Shown here: positions 40,179 through 48,311 of the stretch, in pieces
How positions within the stretch are numbered: position 1 is the first letter of the stretch
Layout: each line of letters begins with the position of its first letter
Virus record (IMG/VR): IMGVR_UViG_3300038415_000014
Location: 96,001 to 160,000 of that record
Length of the DNA stretch: 64,000 nt
Origin: a virus
Reading direction: 5' to 3' (one strand)
Translations under genes and position numbers: made by a program
Notes under the pieces: generated by a model
The model's database searches: none
What the model was told of the DNA's origin: nothing
What the model saw: the letters and a program-made list of their open reading frames with translations, nothing else

Positions 40179-40820
40179 TCACATCCCTGACAACTCGTCA
40201 CCACCACGATTTTCCCATTGAGGAAGTTTAACGGCTCGGAGGATGTTGAAGTTCTTGCTGGCTATAGAGGAAAACACCTTGAAAAGTGGTTCAAAGCTTA
40301 TGTCCTCAGTGGCTTTCTTCTCAAGTAGCTTTACTGCCCCGAAGAATCGATGTCTCACCCGACCCTGAGTGAGCCCTAGCTGCATTGCTACCTCACTTTG
40401 GCAAGTGGTCTTCCACATACCAACAAGTATATCAACGTCAATCTGTTTCAGAGGTACGAAAGGCAGGTTGTACCGCATCTCTACTTCGGTAATCTGTGGT
40501 ATGGACAATAAGAACTTGATCCTCTGAAGTCCACGATCCAATCGATAGCTTATTGCCGCCTGTGTGACATCGAAGATCTCAGCTATGTCAGCTTGGCGCT
40601 TCTTTTGGATGTAGTACAGCTCGATAAGGTCAGCTTCTCTCTCAGGTATCCTGTCTAGTAGTGGCTTGACCTGAGTTTCAAAGTGCATCGAGGAGAGGAT
40701 TGACGCAACTCGCTCTTCGTCCACCTCTTCAATGGGCTCGTCAAATAGTGGCTCTGGAGATGCGAAGCGGTTTGCCAACTCTGCCGGGTCAACCGAGATC
40801 GTAAAACCAGTGCTACCCAT
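40179..40820 (-). CDS. Transcription factor with two sigma70 region-4-like HTH domains
   Basis: IPEREADLIELYY...RQADIAEIFDVTQAAISYRL and CQSEVAMQLGLTQGRVRHR. Confidence 0.65.
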   Translation of the reverse strand: MGSTGFTISVDPAELANRFASPEPLFDEPIEEVDEERVASILSSMHFETQVKPLLDRIPEREADLIELYYIQKKRQADIAEIFDVTQAAISYRLDRGLQRIKFLLSIPQITEVEMRYNLPFVPLKQIDVDILVGMWKTTCQSEVAMQLGLTQGRVRHRFFGAVKLLEKKATEDISFEPLFKVFSSIASKNFNILRAVKLPQWENRGGDELSGM

Positions 40821-40826
40821 AATACC

Positions 40827-42680
40827 TCAACTAGTCTTAGTGAATCCAGCCCCCGCGGGGGTATTGAAGAAAGTGGAGATCAAGGTCTCAGGTTGAATAG
40901 AACACTGCTTTAGAGCTTCAAAAGCACCATCAAAGTCAAGAGCTGCCTCCGTAGTTTGGTAGTCCAGGTCCGATCGAAGAGCCATTAGGTCCACGTTTAA
41001 CCGAGCTTGTTTCTCGAAGCTTCTAATTTTCTCGTATTGTGTCTTGGTAACCCCAGCTAAGCTTGAAGAGTAGACGCCGCTAATAGACCCGTGGGTCATC
41101 AATAGAGCTGCAAGGATCTTCCGGGGTACCCTTGGTACCCCTGGCAGGTTATCTGAGGTGTCCCCCGAGAGAGCTCGAAGGTGAACCATCAACCTAGGTG
41201 GGACCCCGTACTCTGACACAACTCTATCGGGGTCGTAAAGGGTCTCAGGTCGACTTCCTTGCTTGGGTACCAAAAGTAAGTCAGTATAGGTAACCAACTG
41301 TAAGAAGTCTCGGTCTGTAGAGACTATGATGTTGTGTCTACCTTCTAGCTTATTCTTCAGTAGACAAGCTATTATGTCGTCTGTTTCCTCATCAGGGTTA
41401 TGGACTTGTGTGATTCCAAACATTGGAAGTATTGACTGTAGTCGAGACATCTCATCATGAGTACTCTGGCTATGCTCTGGTCTACCAGCCTTGTACTCCG
41501 GGTACATGACAACCCTACGTTGCTTTGAGCCGTCCCACACCACATATAGGTTGGCCCTATCAAAACGCTTCTTGAAGGCGGCTAGGCTGCGCAAAAAGCC
41601 AAATACAAGAGCAGTCGAGCGACCCTCACTATCAGTTAGTTGGTCAGGAATGTTTCTGAGTGCGTTGATAACCCTGTACGCTAGATTGTGGCCGTCGAAT
41701 ACGATGTTGTTAGCCATATCTGGATTCCAATCTGGTATGTATCTCTCAAGCCTGTCGCACTCAGCTTGGATCTGAGAGAATCTGGATAGAAAGCTATCAA
41801 GCAACCCTAATGAAGCTGATTTCCCAGTCAGCAACCTCACATCGGGTACTCGAATCAGGGGTAAGTAAAAGAAGAACCCTGATCTGTCTATATACGAGTT
41901 CATTTGCTGAACTCTGGTGAACTTGCCTAGTATGGACTCACCATCGTGATTGCAGAAAACTCCTGGTGATTGTGGGTCCACCAACAACTTCTTGCCCCTC
42001 CGGAAGACCCCGAGCCATGAGTTGATCAGACCGTACTTGTGATGCAGCCCTCTAATAGGTTCAATTGGATCAAGTAGGTGCTGGGACGGAATCCGAGCCC
42101 GATCAATGTATTGACGAATACGGTTCAATTTAGTGAGGAACGGTGAGTTGTATTGTTGGTCCTCGCTCACAGTGGACACGTACTTCAGAAAACTCCTGGG
42201 TAGAGTGATCAGGGCCTGCTTTGATCTGAGCTTGATGTATACCTGGACGGCATTGTTCTCCGGGATATTCTCGACTACCTTACCGACAATCCCACTATAG
42301 GCGCCACTCATCACCAATACATCATCGTCAACTTCGATCCCTTGTTCAGTCTCCACATGAAGCTGAAGGCGCATCTGATCGATAGAGTTGTCAGGTACAG
42401 CTGATATTTTGCGCACCCTATGGTCAAAGACAGTTAGAACCGATGCAATGTACTTCGATCCCTCCAACTTGAAGTACACTTGGTCTGACTGAGTGCGACG
42501 AACGAAGATGTAGTTCTCGATTAGCTTGTAGACTGACCGAGTATGGCCGCGCGTAATGATAGAAGCCGGAACGAACACGTCCTTCAAGCTCTTGATGGAC
42601 TTCCCAATGGACTTTCTCAGTACCTCTGGGTCTTCATCCTCACCTTGAGGGCTAAGTTCTAGTACAACCCACTCAGCCAT
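40827..42680 (-). CDS. NusG-like (NGN+KOW) fused to a 5'-3' exonuclease/flap endonuclease
   Basis: N-terminal EWVVLEL...VFVP...NYIFV...V.VMSGAYSGIVGKV...V.IKL; C-terminal IVFDGHNLAYR, VVWDG, YPEYKAGR, ETDDII, STDRDFLQL, LSGDTSDNLPGV; start 42680 (GAGGGGG RBS). Confidence 0.8.
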   Translation of the reverse strand: MAEWVVLELSPQGEDEDPEVLRKSIGKSIKSLKDVFVPASIITRGHTRSVYKLIENYIFVRRTQSDQVYFKLEGSKYIASVLTVFDHRVRKISAVPDNSIDQMRLQLHVETEQGIEVDDDVLVMSGAYSGIVGKVVENIPENNAVQVYIKLRSKQALITLPRSFLKYVSTVSEDQQYNSPFLTKLNRIRQYIDRARIPSQHLLDPIEPIRGLHHKYGLINSWLGVFRRGKKLLVDPQSPGVFCNHDGESILGKFTRVQQMNSYIDRSGFFFYLPLIRVPDVRLLTGKSASLGLLDSFLSRFSQIQAECDRLERYIPDWNPDMANNIVFDGHNLAYRVINALRNIPDQLTDSEGRSTALVFGFLRSLAAFKKRFDRANLYVVWDGSKQRRVVMYPEYKAGRPEHSQSTHDEMSRLQSILPMFGITQVHNPDEETDDIIACLLKNKLEGRHNIIVSTDRDFLQLVTYTDLLLVPKQGSRPETLYDPDRVVSEYGVPPRLMVHLRALSGDTSDNLPGVPRVPRKILAALLMTHGSISGVYSSSLAGVTKTQYEKIRSFEKQARLNVDLMALRSDLDYQTTEAALDFDGAFEALKQCSIQPETLISTFFNTPAGAGFTKTS

Positions 42681-44085
42681 TTCCCCCTCTACTCCAGAGT
42701 TCTGCAAACCCTCGTCGCCAAGCTTCGTGAGTTATCAGTTCTCTTTCATTCGAGGTGGATCCATTGTGTATGAGGCTAAACTTCTTCCTTTTACCAGGGT
42801 TAGCCTCTGATATGACATGGGTATCATAGATGGTCATCGCCCGCGGGTCGTCCGAGCCTAAGTTACCAATAGCTAGGCTGTCACTACTGGGAGGCTCCTC
42901 AGTCTCGACTACCGGAGATGGTTTGACTTCCACGGGCTTGCTAGGGGGCGAGGGTGAGGCAGCCAACGGTACCTGAGCTGCCACCGGTGCAGGTGATACC
43001 TGCGGGACCGAAGCTAGAACTACCGGTTGATGAGCAACAGTTGGTACCCTAACCCCAGAAAAAGCCAGGGTGGTTAGGTCACAAATCAAGCTGACCTGAG
43101 TGACGTACCTAGATCTTAGAAAATAGCCGGAAATCTCAATGAGCTTCAACCCATGCAGCTCGTAGGCCTTCTTCGCTAGCTCCCTATCAGTAAACGAAAA
43201 GTCTACCCCTAGCCCATTAGCCAGCCTGAATGCATTCATCGCGGCTTCAGATAGCCCCGAGGCTACCTCTTCGGCAGTAACCCGCTCACAGGCTTGGTCA
43301 GTAAGCTGCAAGGCATTCTTGAGGTCAGTCGACAGACTGATGAGGATTTGATAGTAAGTAGAAACAACCGACAGATTGAGGTGCTCCCGGACATTGTCCA
43401 AGGTAACTGGACCAATCTGAGCGATCATCTCAAGCCGACTCACTACGTCTCGGACATGACCCCCAGCGTAGTCGATGATCGTTAGAACCCCATCATCTTC
43501 GTATTCAACCTTCTCAGCTTCAAGGATGTGTTTCATCCTTACCAGAATGTCATCACGGGTGACCTTCCGGATACCATACTCCTCGCACCGGGATCTGATG
43601 GCCCCACGGACCTTCTCGGGCTCCGTAGTGCAAAACATTCCGATCATCTTGCGCTCTTCCAGAGGCTTTAGTAGGACGTCCTGAGCATCCTTGCTCATCC
43701 GATGGCATTCATCGAACAAGAATATCCGCTTGTCCGCCCCCACAATAGTGAAAGGAAGACTGTCCACAATCCTTCGAATCTGGTCGATACCACCTTGGCT
43801 AGCAGCATCCTTCTCGGAGAAGGCCACTGAAGAGTCATTCAGGATGGATCTGCAACTCTCACACTGGTTGCAGGGCTCCGGATTGCTCTTGTCCAGATTC
43901 TCGCAAAGCATCGCCCGAGCATAGATTCGAGCTAAGGTAGTCTTACCCTGACCACTACCACCGCTGAAAATGTAGCTGGTGTCAAGCGCAGTCCCATTCC
44001 TGAGCCGAGCTTTCAGTAGTTGAACAGTACCCTCTTGACCTAGGACATCAGCGAAGGTCAATGGACGATAAGTGGTATCCCACAC
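42673..44085 (-). CDS. dnaX: DNA polymerase III gamma/tau (clamp loader)
   Basis: YRPLTFADVLGQ, GGSGQGKTT, Cys cluster LC...PCNQCESC, FDECH, SRC motif. Confidence 0.92.
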   Translation of the reverse strand: MWDTTYRPLTFADVLGQEGTVQLLKARLRNGTALDTSYIFSGGSGQGKTTLARIYARAMLCENLDKSNPEPCNQCESCRSILNDSSVAFSEKDAASQGGIDQIRRIVDSLPFTIVGADKRIFLFDECHRMSKDAQDVLLKPLEERKMIGMFCTTEPEKVRGAIRSRCEEYGIRKVTRDDILVRMKHILEAEKVEYEDDGVLTIIDYAGGHVRDVVSRLEMIAQIGPVTLDNVREHLNLSVVSTYYQILISLSTDLKNALQLTDQACERVTAEEVASGLSEAAMNAFRLANGLGVDFSFTDRELAKKAYELHGLKLIEISGYFLRSRYVTQVSLICDLTTLAFSGVRVPTVAHQPVVLASVPQVSPAPVAAQVPLAASPSPPSKPVEVKPSPVVETEEPPSSDSLAIGNLGSDDPRAMTIYDTHVISEANPGKRKKFSLIHNGSTSNERELITHEAWRRGFAELWSRGGNG

Positions 44086-46406: not shown

Positions 46407-47097
46407 GTTTGGAACCTCTAGCGCGCCGTAAAGTCAAGTGCTTACGACCCCCATCAATCTTTGTATCAGCTTGATAGGCCGTTGGCGCGTAATCGACGTA
46501 GGACAGGTGCTGAGTAACCAAGAATATGTCCAGACCCATAGTCTCGGCCAGACCTTTGAGGAACAAGCTGGTGTTTTCCACATATACATCTGACACCGCA
46601 GAAAGAGTCTCGTCGAGCAGAAGGAACTTTCGGCGCTTGAGCCGCAGAAGGGTCAGAATCCTCAGTACTAAACTTGCAATAGTCGCCGGACCTCCCCCAT
46701 AAGACTCCATGGGGCTCCCACGCGTCCCACCATTCTCGGGGTCGCCATCACACACGAGGAACTCTGCGCTGACTCGATTGTACTTCGAGGACAACTCAGT
46801 CTCAAACCTGAGGTCCTGATCAAAAAAGATGGTCTGGAACCCATGCGTGATCACCTCATCAATGGCTTTGACCTGGCTCTTCACCATCCGGTCCAGTAGC
46901 ATCAAGTAGAGCTCAGAGACCTTGGCCAAGATAGCGAGACGAGAAGAGAGGGACTCTAATTCCCTCTCCTTCTCACTCAGTTCTGAGGTCAACTGATCCC
47001 GAAGCGCCGTAACCTTAGTGGATCTAAGTCGAAGCGCATCGAGTCTCTGTTTTCCTACTTCTTTTTCTGAGAGGGTGTGAATCTCGTCACTCGACAC
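46390..47097 (-). CDS. sbcC: SbcC/Rad50 C-terminal half
   Basis: Short coil, signature-like ESYGGG, Walker B LLLDE, H-loop LVTQH. Confidence 0.8.
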   Translation of the reverse strand: MSSDEIHTLSEKEVGKQRLDALRLRSTKVTALRDQLTSELSEKERELESLSSRLAILAKVSELYLMLLDRMVKSQVKAIDEVITHGFQTIFFDQDLRFETELSSKYNRVSAEFLVCDGDPENGGTRGSPMESYGGGPATIASLVLRILTLLRLKRRKFLLLDETLSAVSDVYVENTSLFLKGLAETMGLDIFLVTQHLSYVDYAPTAYQADTKIDGGRKHLTLRRARGSKHENQV

Positions 47098-48311
47098 TGG
47101 ATGCCGTCCTCTGCAGAGGGGTCTGGCTTACCAGACTTTTTGTTCAACTTTACATCATCAATGGTCCTGAATAAGCAGGTGGCTAGGGTACCATCATCCT
47201 TGGGCTTGCCCAAGTAACCTCGGAAGGTGACATCGTAGCCTCTCATGGTCTGGAATAGCTCAGTGAACTGCTTGGCGCTCACTGGGACCGAGAAGCTATC
47301 TGCCTTGGATTGTTTGGTCCCTTCCTCTTCTTCTACCACCGGAGTAGCCTCGACCTTGATGGACTTAGCTTTAGCCGCCGGGACATCAAACCAGATCTTA
47401 GCGATCTTGGCATCATAGTTGAATATGAGGGTGTCATCTTCTTTTTTCAGAGCTCCCTTTGCACAGTCCAGAGCATTCAGTAGGCGACTTCTACTGACCC
47501 GGACCACCAAGGAGTCCATCTTGAGAGAGTGGTAGTTGAACTTGTCATGCAGTTCCCCTAACTTGCTCCAACCAAAGACGTCGCCCCTCTCACTCAAGGC
47601 GAAAGTCTTATCACTGCCAATCCTGAGAGTAACTGTAGCGTCACACTTTGATAGGAAACTCAAGAAAGCTGAGATGAACCTATCGCTGATGGCCAACCTT
47701 TTACCAGAGAAGTGCTCGCTCTTGAAGAAGCAAGCCATATACTTGTCACTGGCGAATAGGTAGCCGTCACCTTTCTCGAATCGGCCCTTATCCATCACCT
47801 CGATCCCGCGGTACGCTTCTGAGTCGCTCTCAGCCTTGTCAGCCATAAATGGTCGAGCCAGGCTGATTGCCTCTCGAAGAACCCCAGCACTGAACTCGTA
47901 GGTTTCAGTAGCCGCCTCAAGGTCTTCATCATATCGGGAGACACTGTCCGGAGATATGGTTCCGAACTCCGCCTTGGCTCCATCAGGACTAGTAACATAC
48001 CTCACCACATGGCTTCCCTCTTCAGAGGTTGCCTCGATGATGCAAGTATCCTCCTCTTTCGCCAGAGGGCGCAATGAATTACTCAGGTTCTGGGCAGGGA
48101 ACACGAAGGCCCCATCTCCACTTGACTCAATCAAATCAAACTTAGCCCGTGCTATGCAGTCAAGGCCACTGGAGTAGAGGTGACACTCCTTGCCCTTCAC
48201 AGAGAAAAGATACCCTGCTGTACCATTTTCAGTCGCGTTGGGGTTCACAGCGGAGACCACATCAAGGGCCTCAATGATATCAGACAGGTTGAAATTTATG
48301 GTGATCTTCAT
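47055..48311 (-). CDS. dnaN: DNA polymerase III beta sliding clamp-like protein
   Basis: 418 aa with a repeating clamp-like pattern (L.EA...V, LREAISLA...F, FASD, VSRSRLLNALD); dnaX and holA in the same module. Confidence 0.65.
   Translation of the reverse strand: MKITINFNLSDIIEALDVVSAVNPNATENGTAGYLFSVKGKECHLYSSGLDCIARAKFDLIESSGDGAFVFPAQNLSNSLRPLAKEEDTCIIEATSEEGSHVVRYVTSPDGAKAEFGTISPDSVSRYDEDLEAATETYEFSAGVLREAISLARPFMADKAESDSEAYRGIEVMDKGRFEKGDGYLFASDKYMACFFKSEHFSGKRLAISDRFISAFLSFLSKCDATVTLRIGSDKTFALSERGDVFGWSKLGELHDKFNYHSLKMDSLVVRVSRSRLLNALDCAKGALKKEDDTLIFNYDAKIAKIWFDVPAAKAKSIKVEATPVVEEEEGTKQSKADSFSVPVSAKQFTELFQTMRGYDVTFRGYLGKPKDDGTLATCLFRTIDDVKLNKKSGKPDPSAEDGIQCRVTRFTPSQKKK

What the first reader, a model, noticed from the sequence alone, without database searches (positions are those of the whole stretch)
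40827..42680. NusG transcription factor fused to a 5'-3' flap exonuclease
Seen: one uninterrupted ORF with NGN+KOW (about 42680-42180), a ~150-aa helical linker, and a FEN/PolA-N nuclease with intact acidic motifs (41717-40827). Established: NusG/Spt5 binds the RNAP clamp, and FEN-family nucleases remove RNA primers and flaps and degrade RNA in hybrids. I know of no described fusion of the two. Inference: a nuclease tethered to elongating RNAP that resolves R-loops and replication-transcription conflicts, degrades host transcripts (torpedo-like termination), or couples replication to late transcription. An internal start at MANN (41717) could also yield the free nuclease.
Basis: partly seen in the sequence, partly recalled or inferred. 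Interest (0 to 1): 0.75.

Follow-up and report, generated by a model that had tools for sequence, protein, structure and literature searches.

The report
Huge-phage NusG fused to flap nuclease
An uncultured huge phage from peat joins a copy of NusG, the factor that rides on RNA polymerase, to its only DNA flap nuclease in one 617-residue protein. This suggests a physical link between phage transcription and DNA replication that can be tested and that I found in no paper.

Summary
Window 40827-42680 (-) is one open frame of 617 aa with a strong Shine-Dalgarno site. It holds NGN (1-108), KOW (113-168), a four-helix linker (about 170-321) and an intact Pol I-type 5' nuclease (322-617).

- **N-terminal half:** sequence profile and predicted fold both say NusG/RfaH/Spt5.
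- **Not an artefact:** more than 100 full-length homologues, down to 36% identity, lie on phage contigs of up to 529 kb. An independent contig crosses the junction without indels.
- **Other forms:** relatives also carry NusG and FEN as coupled neighbouring genes, NusG+linker and FEN split at the conserved Met, or NusG alone.
- **Genome setting:** five complete relatives have no RNA polymerase beta subunit, exactly one FEN (this one) and a family A DNA polymerase without a 5' nuclease.

Best reading (0.5): a specialised NusG paralogue places the phage's replicative flap/RNA-primer nuclease on host RNA polymerase, where transcription meets replication. RNA polymerase binding is inferred, not shown.

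The main rival is two functions that are merely co-expressed. A torpedo role is unlikely. No paper describes the fusion; JGI's automatic names list both parts. This scan has found the same family in at least six other genomes.

The parts
42357..42680 (-). NGN domain (residues 1-108) of the NusG-like half. Invariant W4, P38, Y57 and F59 (GYxFV strand).
   Evidence: Pfam NusG 3-104 over the full profile. Profile vs PDB, NusG best. VIA: RfaH NGN 8pen_P Z 9.7, rmsd 3.1, 97 aa; E. coli NusG NGN 6vz7_AB Z 8.8. Invariant columns.
42177..42344 (-). KOW domain (residues 113-168). The loop L151-R152-S153-K154 is invariant in every architecture.
   Evidence: Pfam KOW 117-147. VIA: T. maritima NusG KOW Z 10.8, rmsd 1.3, 56 aa. 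LRSK aligns with T. maritima NusG 'IFGR'. Invariant columns.
41718..42176 (-). Variable helical linker (residues 169-321): four long helices with large indels between relatives. It is absent from the deep two-gene clade.
   Evidence: AF2 helices 180-202, 207-234, 250-266 and 281-314, pLDDT 50-85. Alignment indels. No fold or feature match.
41715..41717 (-). Internal ATG (Met322), 7 residues before the catalytic Asp329. It sits where the FEN start codon lies in split relatives.
   Evidence: Met at -7 in 31 of 41 distinct fused proteins. SD-like score of 4 or more upstream in 10 of 32, against 36 of 386 other internal Mets and 103 of 148 gene starts. Weak in this window (TTGGAATCCAGAT-ATG).
40932..41705 (-). 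Pol I-type 5' nuclease / flap endonuclease core (residues 326-583: N-terminal resolvase-like domain plus H3TH/SAM fold), with all metal-binding acids present.
   Evidence: Pfam PF02739 E 1.4e-30 and PF01367 E 1.6e-14, both above cut-off. PDB sequences: M. smegmatis Pol I 5' domain E 1.2e-28, Taq E 1.9e-24. Foldseek: FenA 6c33 E 8e-18, ExoIX, T5 D15. Invariant acids.
40830..40931 (-). C-terminal tail (residues 584-617) with the conserved [IL][LIV]xxFF motif (L600-F605; window 40866-40883) and a GFxK end.
   Evidence: Alignment of C-termini. Function untested.
42673..44085 (-). Upstream gene: DnaX-like clamp-loader ATPase. Its stop overlaps the fusion's start codon.
   Evidence: Pfam DNA_pol3_delta2 E 1.5e-25. 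Sequence. Same position in all related loci.
40179..40820 (-). Downstream gene, 6 nt after the fusion's stop: a 213-aa protein with two sigma-70 region-4 HTH domains and no region 2. It lies next to the NusG-like gene in every architecture.
   Evidence: Pfam Sigma70_r4, 2 stretches, E 1.9e-13. PHROG sigma factor families. Synteny. 47 invariant columns.

Best explanation
The gene encodes a bifunctional protein of an uncultured huge phage. The record is 183.5 kb and CheckV puts it at 38% complete; complete relatives are 393-529 kb. A specialised NusG paralogue (NGN plus KOW) is joined through a helical linker of about 150 aa to the phage's only Pol I-type 5' nuclease (FEN).

Shown:
- both halves are bona fide members of their families, and the nuclease keeps every catalytic acid;
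- the fusion is conserved across a large clade;
- the two parts also occur as translationally coupled neighbouring genes;
- five complete relatives have no RNA polymerase beta subunit, no other FEN, and a family A DNA polymerase that lacks its 5' nuclease.

Inferred mechanism:
- The NGN domain docks on the beta' clamp helices of host RNA polymerase transcribing phage DNA, in place of host NusG.
- The KOW loop that in NusG contacts Rho and S10 (IFGR) is replaced by an invariant LRSK, so the factor probably does not recruit Rho. It would then favour processive transcription of the long same-strand gene arrays.
- The tethered FEN, which must also be the primer- and flap-removing nuclease of replication, is thereby held where transcription and replication meet. 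There it could remove RNA from RNA:DNA hybrids (R-loops, or transcripts used as primers after co-directional collisions) and the 5' flaps left behind.
- A free FEN form may also be made from the conserved internal Met, or arise by gene fission in some lineages, to serve at Okazaki fragments.
For: - Single ORF with a strong SD and no indels in independent contigs.
- NusG membership: profile vs PDB 7.6e-9. The top 30 Foldseek matches are all NusG/RfaH/Spt5. VIA gives Z 9.7-10.8 for NGN and KOW separately. The Pfam NusG model is over its cut-off in 3 of 5 relatives.
- FEN membership and intact acids.
- More than 100 full-length homologues at 36-96% identity, 69 viral loci on contigs of up to 529 kb, and 884 relatives of the NusG-like half among 1.84 billion representatives.
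- Two-gene forms with ATGA/TAATG coupling, and NusG+linker / FEN splits.
- The tree shows a monophyletic two-gene clade and two independent secondary fissions inside the fused clade.
- No RNAP beta subunit in 5 complete relatives. One FEN per genome, one NusG, a family A polymerase without 5' nuclease, and no Pol III alpha.
- Operon with the clamp loader and the sigma-4-like gene, inside a replication module of Toprim, beta clamp, RecA, RecD2-like helicase and LigA.
- 170 of 175 ORFs lie on one strand.
- Precedent for a phage FEN-family RNase H serving both replication and late transcription: Rhc of Chimalliviridae (PMC13648698).
Against: - No direct evidence that the NGN binds RNA polymerase. 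The host is unknown.
- The parts are separable: NusG occurs alone between the clamp loader and the sigma-4-like gene in LR745208.1. There is a deep two-gene clade and two later fissions. Covalent tethering is therefore not essential, and the functions could be independent.
- The whole 10-gene block is collinear in all relatives, so adjacency by itself says little.
- Window-level Pfam scores for NGN and KOW are just under the cut-offs.
- The domain arrangement in the model is uncertain (pTM 0.50).
Confidence: 0.5

Rival explanations
1. Fusion of convenience. The NusG-like half is a phage antitermination or processivity factor, perhaps working with the neighbouring sigma-4-like protein. The FEN is simply the Okazaki-fragment nuclease. 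Joining them only fixes co-expression and stoichiometry, and the nuclease does not act on or at RNA polymerase.
For: - NusG-like alone sits in the same genomic slot in LR745208.1.
- There is a deep two-gene clade without a linker and two independent re-splits at the domain border.
- The conserved internal Met could give free FEN.
- Stand-alone phage NusG/RfaH-like proteins are common.
- The FEN is the only one in the genome, so it must serve replication anyway.
Against: - The fused state is kept in most lineages, across divergence down to 36% identity.
- Where the genes are separate, they stay adjacent and translationally coupled.
- The linker is retained with the NusG half after fission, which is unexpected for a passive tether.
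Confidence: 0.25
2. Replication-coupled late transcription, functionally like T4 gp55/gp33/gp45. NGN occupies the beta' clamp helices (the sigma region-2 site). The tandem sigma-4-like neighbour occupies the beta flap and promoter DNA. The FEN, directly or through the sliding clamp, recognises nicks and flaps of replicating DNA, so that late genes are read only from replicating templates.
For: - The order clamp loader, NusG-FEN, sigma-4-like is universal and lies at the border between replication genes and the downstream same-strand genes.
- One complete relative has no sigma region-2 protein at all, yet keeps the sigma-4-like gene.
- A singleton ORF joins a sigma-70-type factor to the same NusG-like module.
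- From memory, unchecked here: T5 late gene expression requires its D15 5' exonuclease, and T4 late transcription requires the clamp loaded at nicks.
Against: - No tested contact between any of these proteins.
- NGN domains are elongation factors and are not known to act in initiation.
- Other relatives encode complete sigma factors elsewhere.
- The sigma-NusG ORF is a singleton and may be two merged genes.
Confidence: 0.12
3. Torpedo or transcript-degrading factor. The RNA polymerase-bound 5'-3' nuclease digests nascent or host RNA from its 5' end and dislodges the polymerase, as Xrn2/Rat1 does with Spt5 and FttA does with archaeal Spt5.
For: - Nuclease partnerships with NusG-family factors exist: FttA with Spt4/5 (PMC11616081) and Xrn2 stimulated by Spt5 (PMC11695829), both from the abstracts.
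- From memory: Xrn enzymes share the FEN-like acidic active site.
Against: - The nuclease is closest to Pol I 5' domains, FenA and ExoIX. These are structure-specific enzymes that act on flaps, nicks and hybrids, not processive single-strand RNases.
- It is the phage's only primer-removal nuclease.
- A phage gains little by terminating its own long operons.
Confidence: 0.05
4. The NGN-KOW module has been repurposed to bind something other than RNA polymerase, such as the replisome, single-stranded nucleic acid or the ribosome. It would then be merely an accessory domain of a replication nuclease.
For: - The KOW loop is invariant but unlike NusG's (LRSK vs IFGR).
- The gene lies inside a replication operon.
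Against: - The NGN strands and hydrophobic residues typical of the family (W4, GYxFV) are invariant.
- All NGN domains studied bind the same RNA polymerase elements (review PMC7819879).
- The constant neighbour is a sigma-4-like transcription protein.
Confidence: 0.08

Closest known systems
Specialised NusG paralogues (RfaH, LoaP, UpxY, ActX/TaA) and housekeeping NusG/Spt5
   Same: NGN plus KOW in the same order and with the same folds. Encoded by a mobile element next to very long same-strand gene arrays, as specialised paralogues typically are. Expected to ride on RNA polymerase at the beta' clamp helices (PMC7819879).
   Different: It carries a linker of about 150 aa and a 300-aa nuclease after the KOW. 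The KOW loop is LRSK rather than the NusG IFGR. There is no evidence of an RfaH-type alpha-helical autoinhibited KOW, since AF2 gives a beta barrel. No recruitment (ops-like) site is known.
Pol I 5' nuclease domain and stand-alone bacterial or phage FENs (M. smegmatis FenA, E. coli ExoIX, T5 D15)
   Same: Same fold, same two Pfam domains, all catalytic acids. It pairs with a family A polymerase that lacks this domain, as D15 does in T5 (PMC3632103).
   Different: It is fused N-terminally to a transcription factor. The C-terminal [IL][LIV]xxFF tail is specific to this family.
Rhc (RNase H-clamp) of Chimalliviridae jumbo phages (PMC13648698)
   Same: A jumbo-phage RNase H-type nuclease joined to a second domain that positions it on a nucleic-acid machine. 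It is needed both for replication and, separately, for transcription of long late units, probably by removing R-loops.
   Different: Rhc's partner domain is clamp-derived and binds the phage DNA polymerase; here it is NusG-like. Rhc phages have their own RNA polymerases and a phage nucleus. No sequence relation to Rhc was tested here.
Non-covalent nuclease partners of NusG-family factors: archaeal FttA with Spt4/5, and Xrn2/Rat1 with Spt5
   Same: A NusG-family factor on RNA polymerase works together with a nuclease (abstracts of PMC11616081 and PMC11695829).
   Different: Those nucleases are beta-CASP or Xrn RNases acting on free nascent RNA for termination, and they are separate proteins. 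Here a Pol I-type structure-specific nuclease is covalently fused.

Membership tests
NusG/Spt5 family | NGN domain fold (alpha/beta sandwich) | tested here: met
   VIA: residues 1-108 vs RfaH NGN 8pen_P Z 9.7, rmsd 3.1, 97 of 101 aa; E. coli NusG NGN Z 8.8; Spt5 NGN 3lpe Z 8.8. The top 30 Foldseek matches are all NusG/RfaH/Spt5, best E 3.5e-9.
NusG/Spt5 family | KOW beta-barrel C-terminal to the NGN | tested here: met
   Residues 113-168 vs T. maritima NusG KOW Z 10.8, rmsd 1.3. Pfam KOW 1-31 of 32, E 2e-4.
NusG/Spt5 family | Significant sequence match to family models | tested here: met
   Window protein alone: Pfam NusG 19.0 bits vs cut-off 22.2, and KOW 21.4 vs 22.3, both just under. Family profile A3 vs PDB: NusG chains at 7.6e-9 to 1e-3 and nothing unrelated above them. 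Over the Pfam cut-off in 3 of 5 relatives.
NusG/Spt5 family | Binding of NGN to the RNA polymerase clamp helices and gate loop | not testable with these tools
W4 and the GYxFV strand (Y57, F59) are invariant. Their role at the RNA polymerase interface is recalled from RfaH/NusG work, not tested here.
Housekeeping bacterial NusG (Rho and S10 coupling) | KOW loop with the conserved aromatic (E. coli I164-F165-G166-R167, from memory) that contacts Rho and S10 | tested here: not met
   In the HMMER alignment to T. maritima NusG, the loop 'IFGR' is matched by an invariant L151-R152-S153-K154.
RfaH-type specialised paralogue | Autoinhibited alpha-helical KOW and recruitment at an ops-like DNA element | tested here: inconclusive
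   AF2 models the KOW as a beta barrel with pLDDT about 85, which does not exclude fold switching. No search for recruitment sites was made.
Pol I-type 5'-3' exonuclease / FEN (PF02739 + PF01367) | Both domains above the curated cut-offs, and the fold | tested here: met
   106.6 bits vs 34.3, and 54.6 vs 40. Foldseek: FenA 6c33 E 8e-18, TM to target 0.77. M. smegmatis Pol I 5' domain E 1.2e-28.
Pol I-type 5'-3' exonuclease / FEN (PF02739 + PF01367) | Complete set of metal-binding acidic residues | tested here: met
   D329, D383, E432, D434, D456, D458, D507 and D510 invariant, and D435 nearly so, in 38 homologues. They align with the DG, DxS, EADD, DRD and GDxSD motifs of M. smegmatis Pol I.
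Pol I-type 5'-3' exonuclease / FEN (PF02739 + PF01367) | Flap, nick or hybrid nuclease activity | not testable with these tools
   Needs a biochemical assay.
Chimalliviridae Rhc (RNase H-clamp) | RNase H domain fused to a clamp-derived DNA-binding domain that binds the phage DNA polymerase | not tested
   The architecture differs by inspection: the partner domain here is NGN-KOW at the N-terminus. Rhc is treated only as a functional analogue.

The most novel reading that the evidence does not exclude
The NusG-like half, the invariant tandem sigma-4-like neighbour and the FEN together form a replication-coupled transcription apparatus for host RNA polymerase. NGN would take the sigma region-2 site on the beta' clamp helices, the sigma-4-like protein the beta flap, and the FEN (with or without the sliding clamp) would read nicks and flaps of replicating DNA. 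Late genes would then fire only on replicating templates. This would be a convergent counterpart of T4 gp55/gp33/gp45, built from a NusG.
Probability: 0.12. Interest if true: 0.85.

Novelty: new variant of a known kind. Interest (0 to 1): 0.62.

Why it matters
NusG/Spt5 is the only transcription factor conserved in all life. It normally recruits its partners (Rho, ribosome, RNases) non-covalently through its KOW domain. Here a widespread clade of huge phages has hard-wired an enzyme to it, and that enzyme is the phage's sole replication flap/primer nuclease.

If the protein does ride on host RNA polymerase, it is a natural handle on an old question: how transcription and replication are coordinated on one heavily used template. 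That covers R-loop removal, restart after co-directional collisions, and replication-dependent late transcription.

Nature also supplies the controls. Fused, split-with-linker, two-gene and NusG-only versions all exist, and they can be compared directly at the bench.

Tried and rejected
- **Complex prediction:** FEN domain (320-617, alignment A1) against the phage beta clamp (A5) gave no verdict (ipSAE 0.01, controls not run). This is no evidence either way about clamp binding by the C-terminal FF motif.
- **RNA runs:** no RNA holder was listed for the stretch, so nothing can be said on expression.
- **Linker:** no fold match in PDB by Foldseek or VIA and no feature hit in the ESM Atlas. It remains unassigned.
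- **Cultured phages (INPHARED):** only the FEN part matches. The NusG part matches one uncultured 485-kb record. No cultured phage with this architecture was found.
- **Literature:** six searches and three papers searched for terms turned up no description of a NusG-nuclease fusion. I could not confirm the T5 D15 requirement for late gene expression in the held library, so it is cited from memory only.
- **Promoter and terminator scan, 36-47 kb:** no more sites than chance.
- **Assembly artefact:** rejected on conservation and on independent contigs.
- **Sigma-NusG ORF P0209:** considered as a second Rosetta stone, but it is a singleton and is kept only as a passing note.
- **Tree root:** unresolved because the outgroup branch is long, so I do not claim which of fusion or fission came first between the deep clades.
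Full report
**1.
Window 40827..42680 on the minus strand is one open frame of 617 codons plus stop.
- The ATG at 42680 is preceded by GAGGGGG and overlaps the stop of the upstream clamp-loader gene (ATGGCTGA). The next gene starts 6 nt after the stop, so the three genes form a tight operon.
- Pfam finds the two domains of a Pol I-type 5' nuclease far above their cut-offs (326-492, E 1.4e-30; 493-583, E 1.6e-14). It also finds, just under the cut-offs, a full-length NGN match (3-104) and a KOW (117-147).

**2. The N-terminal half is a real NusG.**
- A profile of 35 N-terminal halves (A3) searched against all PDB sequences returns only NusG and Spt5 at the top. T. maritima NusG scores E 7.6e-9 across both domains, followed by Aquifex, M. 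tuberculosis and E. coli NusG. Ribosomal uL24 KOWs appear only near E 0.01-0.3.
- An AlphaFold2 model of residues 1-325 (pLDDT 75; NGN and KOW about 85) gives NusG, RfaH or Spt5 for all of the top 30 Foldseek matches in the PDB (best 3.5e-9).
- In an exhaustive VIA search the KOW superposes on T. maritima NusG KOW at Z 10.8, rmsd 1.3 Å. The NGN superposes on RfaH at Z 9.7 (97 residues) and on E. coli NusG at Z 8.8.
- W4 and the GYxFV strand (Y57, F59) are invariant. From memory these correspond to the RfaH/NusG residues that line the pocket for the beta' clamp helices. That correspondence is a lead, not a test.
- One feature departs from housekeeping NusG. The KOW loop that aligns with 'IFGR' of T. 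maritima NusG is an invariant LRSK. From memory, the E. coli equivalent of 'IFGR' is the Rho- and S10-binding loop around F165.

**3. The C-terminal half is an intact FEN.**
- Its closest solved relatives by sequence are the 5' nuclease domains of M. smegmatis Pol I (1.2e-28) and Taq polymerase (1.9e-24).
- By fold the closest are FenA, a plastid exonuclease, E. coli ExoIX, Taq and T5 D15.
- All metal-binding acids are invariant in 38 homologues.

**4. The linker (about 170-321)** is four long helices. It varies in sequence and length and has no match anywhere I looked.

**5. It is not an artefact, and it is widespread.**
- More than 100 clusters of full-length homologues (98-100% coverage, 36-96% identity) exist in the metagenomic protein collection. 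JGI's pipeline names many of them '5'-3' exonuclease/transcription antitermination factor NusG'.
- IMG/VR gives 69 loci, on contigs of up to 529 kb, several with terminal repeats and rated 100% complete.
- The window's own record is a 183.5-kb linear fragment rated 38% complete.
- Contigs from public runs agree. The likely source sample is identical, two other peat samples give identical pieces, and a viral-metagenome contig from another study crosses NGN, KOW, linker and the FEN junction with 137 substitutions and no gap.
- An exhaustive profile search with the NusG-like half finds 884 representatives, in three length classes: about 540-690 aa (fused), 280-390 aa and 160-250 aa (stand-alone).

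**6. Four architectures exist.**
In all loci a block of ten genes is collinear. It runs: two unknowns, Toprim, metallopeptidase-like, clamp loader, [NusG-FEN], sigma-4-like, then three more. Within that slot there are four forms:
- (a) Fused with linker. This is the majority, including the window.
- (b) A deep clade (L064-L069, 28-31% identity). The NusG-like ORF ends right after the KOW, and the FEN ORF starts 8-15 residues before the catalytic Asp. The two have ATGA/TAATG-type coupling and no linker.
- (c) NusG+linker and FEN as separate genes split at the border: L063, and L055 with its relatives P0134-P0137 from three data sources. L053 has a frameshift at the same place.
- (d) NusG-like alone, directly between clamp loader and sigma-4-like gene, in the 485-kb record LR745208.1.

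A maximum-likelihood tree of NGN-KOW plus sigma-4-like sequences makes (b) one clade (SH-aLRT 100). It nests the (c) cases at two separate places inside the fused clade (99 and 98), so the gene was re-split at least twice. The root is unresolved.

**7. The internal start is plausible but unproven.**
- A Met lies exactly 7 residues before the catalytic Asp in 31 of 41 distinct fused proteins, and most of the rest have Val there. This is the position of the FEN start codon in L063.
- A Shine-Dalgarno-like motif at the right distance is present in 10 of 32. The comparison figures are 36 of 386 for other internal Mets and 103 of 148 for real gene starts. The sequences are related, so this is suggestive only. 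In this window the context is weak.

**8. What the phage lacks and has.**
- Five complete relatives have no RNA polymerase beta subunit.
- Each has exactly one PF02739 nuclease, the NusG-linked one, and one NusG.
- Each has a family A DNA polymerase of about 1,000 aa without a 5' nuclease, and no Pol III alpha.
- The window also carries a very divergent beta clamp (profile vs DnaN structures, 9e-8), plus RecA, a RecD2-like helicase, NAD-dependent ligase, Mre11/Rad50 parts and a class II ribonucleotide reductase.
- 170 of 175 ORFs lie on one strand.
- So the fused FEN must be the replicative primer/flap nuclease, transcription depends on host RNA polymerase, and transcription and replication share very long co-directional units.

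**9. Mechanism.**
The best-supported reading is that the NGN places this nuclease on host RNA polymerase.
- As a NusG paralogue it would displace host NusG. With its altered KOW loop it would probably not recruit Rho, which favours processive transcription.
- The FEN would then be at hand for RNA:DNA hybrids and flaps where transcription and replication meet.
- The closest experimental precedent is Rhc of Chimalliviridae. It is an RNase H fused to a positioning domain, required for replication and, separately, for transcription of long late units, probably through R-loop removal (PMC13648698).
- Steps shown: architecture, family membership, intact active site, conservation, gene context, absence of other FENs and of an RNA polymerase beta subunit.
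- Steps inferred: RNA polymerase binding, loss of Rho coupling, the substrates, and any benefit of tethering.
- I give this reading 0.5.

The rivals:
- The main rival (0.25) is that the two functions are independent and the fusion is one of convenience. The separable architectures support it. The persistence of fusion, the strict coupling of the split genes, and the retention of the linker after fission argue against it.
- A T4-like coupling of late transcription to replication, together with the sigma-4-like neighbour, is the most novel reading still open (0.12).
- A torpedo role is unlikely for a Pol I-type structure-specific nuclease (0.05).
- A partner other than RNA polymerase gets 0.08.

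**10. Novelty.**
- Both halves are known families. Stand-alone phage NusG/RfaH-like proteins are already in PHROGs and BFVD.
- I found no paper that describes the fusion with a nuclease. Six full-text searches, the NusG review PMC7819879 and the huge-phage paper PMC7162821 gave nothing.
- I class it as a new variant of a known kind.
- This scan has already reported the same family from at least six other genomes, with the same conclusions. My results were obtained before I read those notes, and they agree.

Noticed in passing
L072:3612-5237 (protein P0209): One 541-aa ORF on an 18-kb metagenome contig joins a sigma-70-type factor (region 2 at 51-113, region 4 at 215-263) to the same phage NusG-like NGN-KOW (326-491, 41-47% identical to the NusG-FEN N-termini). 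It is a singleton in the protein collection and may be two merged genes.
   Followed up: partly
window 40179-40820 (-): The downstream neighbour has two sigma region-4 HTH domains and no region 2. Its N-terminal GY[VI]IxVDPxELANRF and C-terminal KFNILREVKLPQWxxRGGD peptides are almost invariant in all clades (47 invariant columns). It is more conserved than the fusion itself, and its partner is unknown.
   Followed up: partly
window 47055-48311 (-): A 418-aa protein with no Pfam or PHROG hit is a very divergent beta sliding clamp. Only a family profile finds DnaN structures (1vpk_A 9e-8; 8dt6_A 3e-6 over 361 positions).
   Followed up: yes
L071:4161-6047 (LR745208.1): The clamp-loader gene of this 485-kb phage is 628 aa, with an intein-like insert right after the Walker B 'LFDEC'. 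Clamp-loader ORFs of 904-924 aa in L026 and L044 may carry inserts too.
   Followed up: no
L064-L069, FEN ORF ends; window 40866-40883: FEN C-terminal tails differ by architecture. Two-gene forms end in an acidic-hydrophobic D[WFL]LxxI-stop. Fused forms carry [IL][LIV]xxFF, often followed by GFxK. Both look like short docking motifs.
   Followed up: partly
G000:C1:17231-18463 (outside the window): A family A DNA polymerase in a 1,029-aa frame, without a 5' nuclease domain. One complete relative (G001) has the polymerase match in two pieces inside a 1,422-aa frame, which may mean an insert.
   Followed up: no
whole record G000 (183,533 bp): 170 of 175 ORFs are on one strand and coding density is about 95%. 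The source is a peat metagenome, and close relatives occur in pond, wetland and viral-fraction metagenomes.
   Followed up: partly
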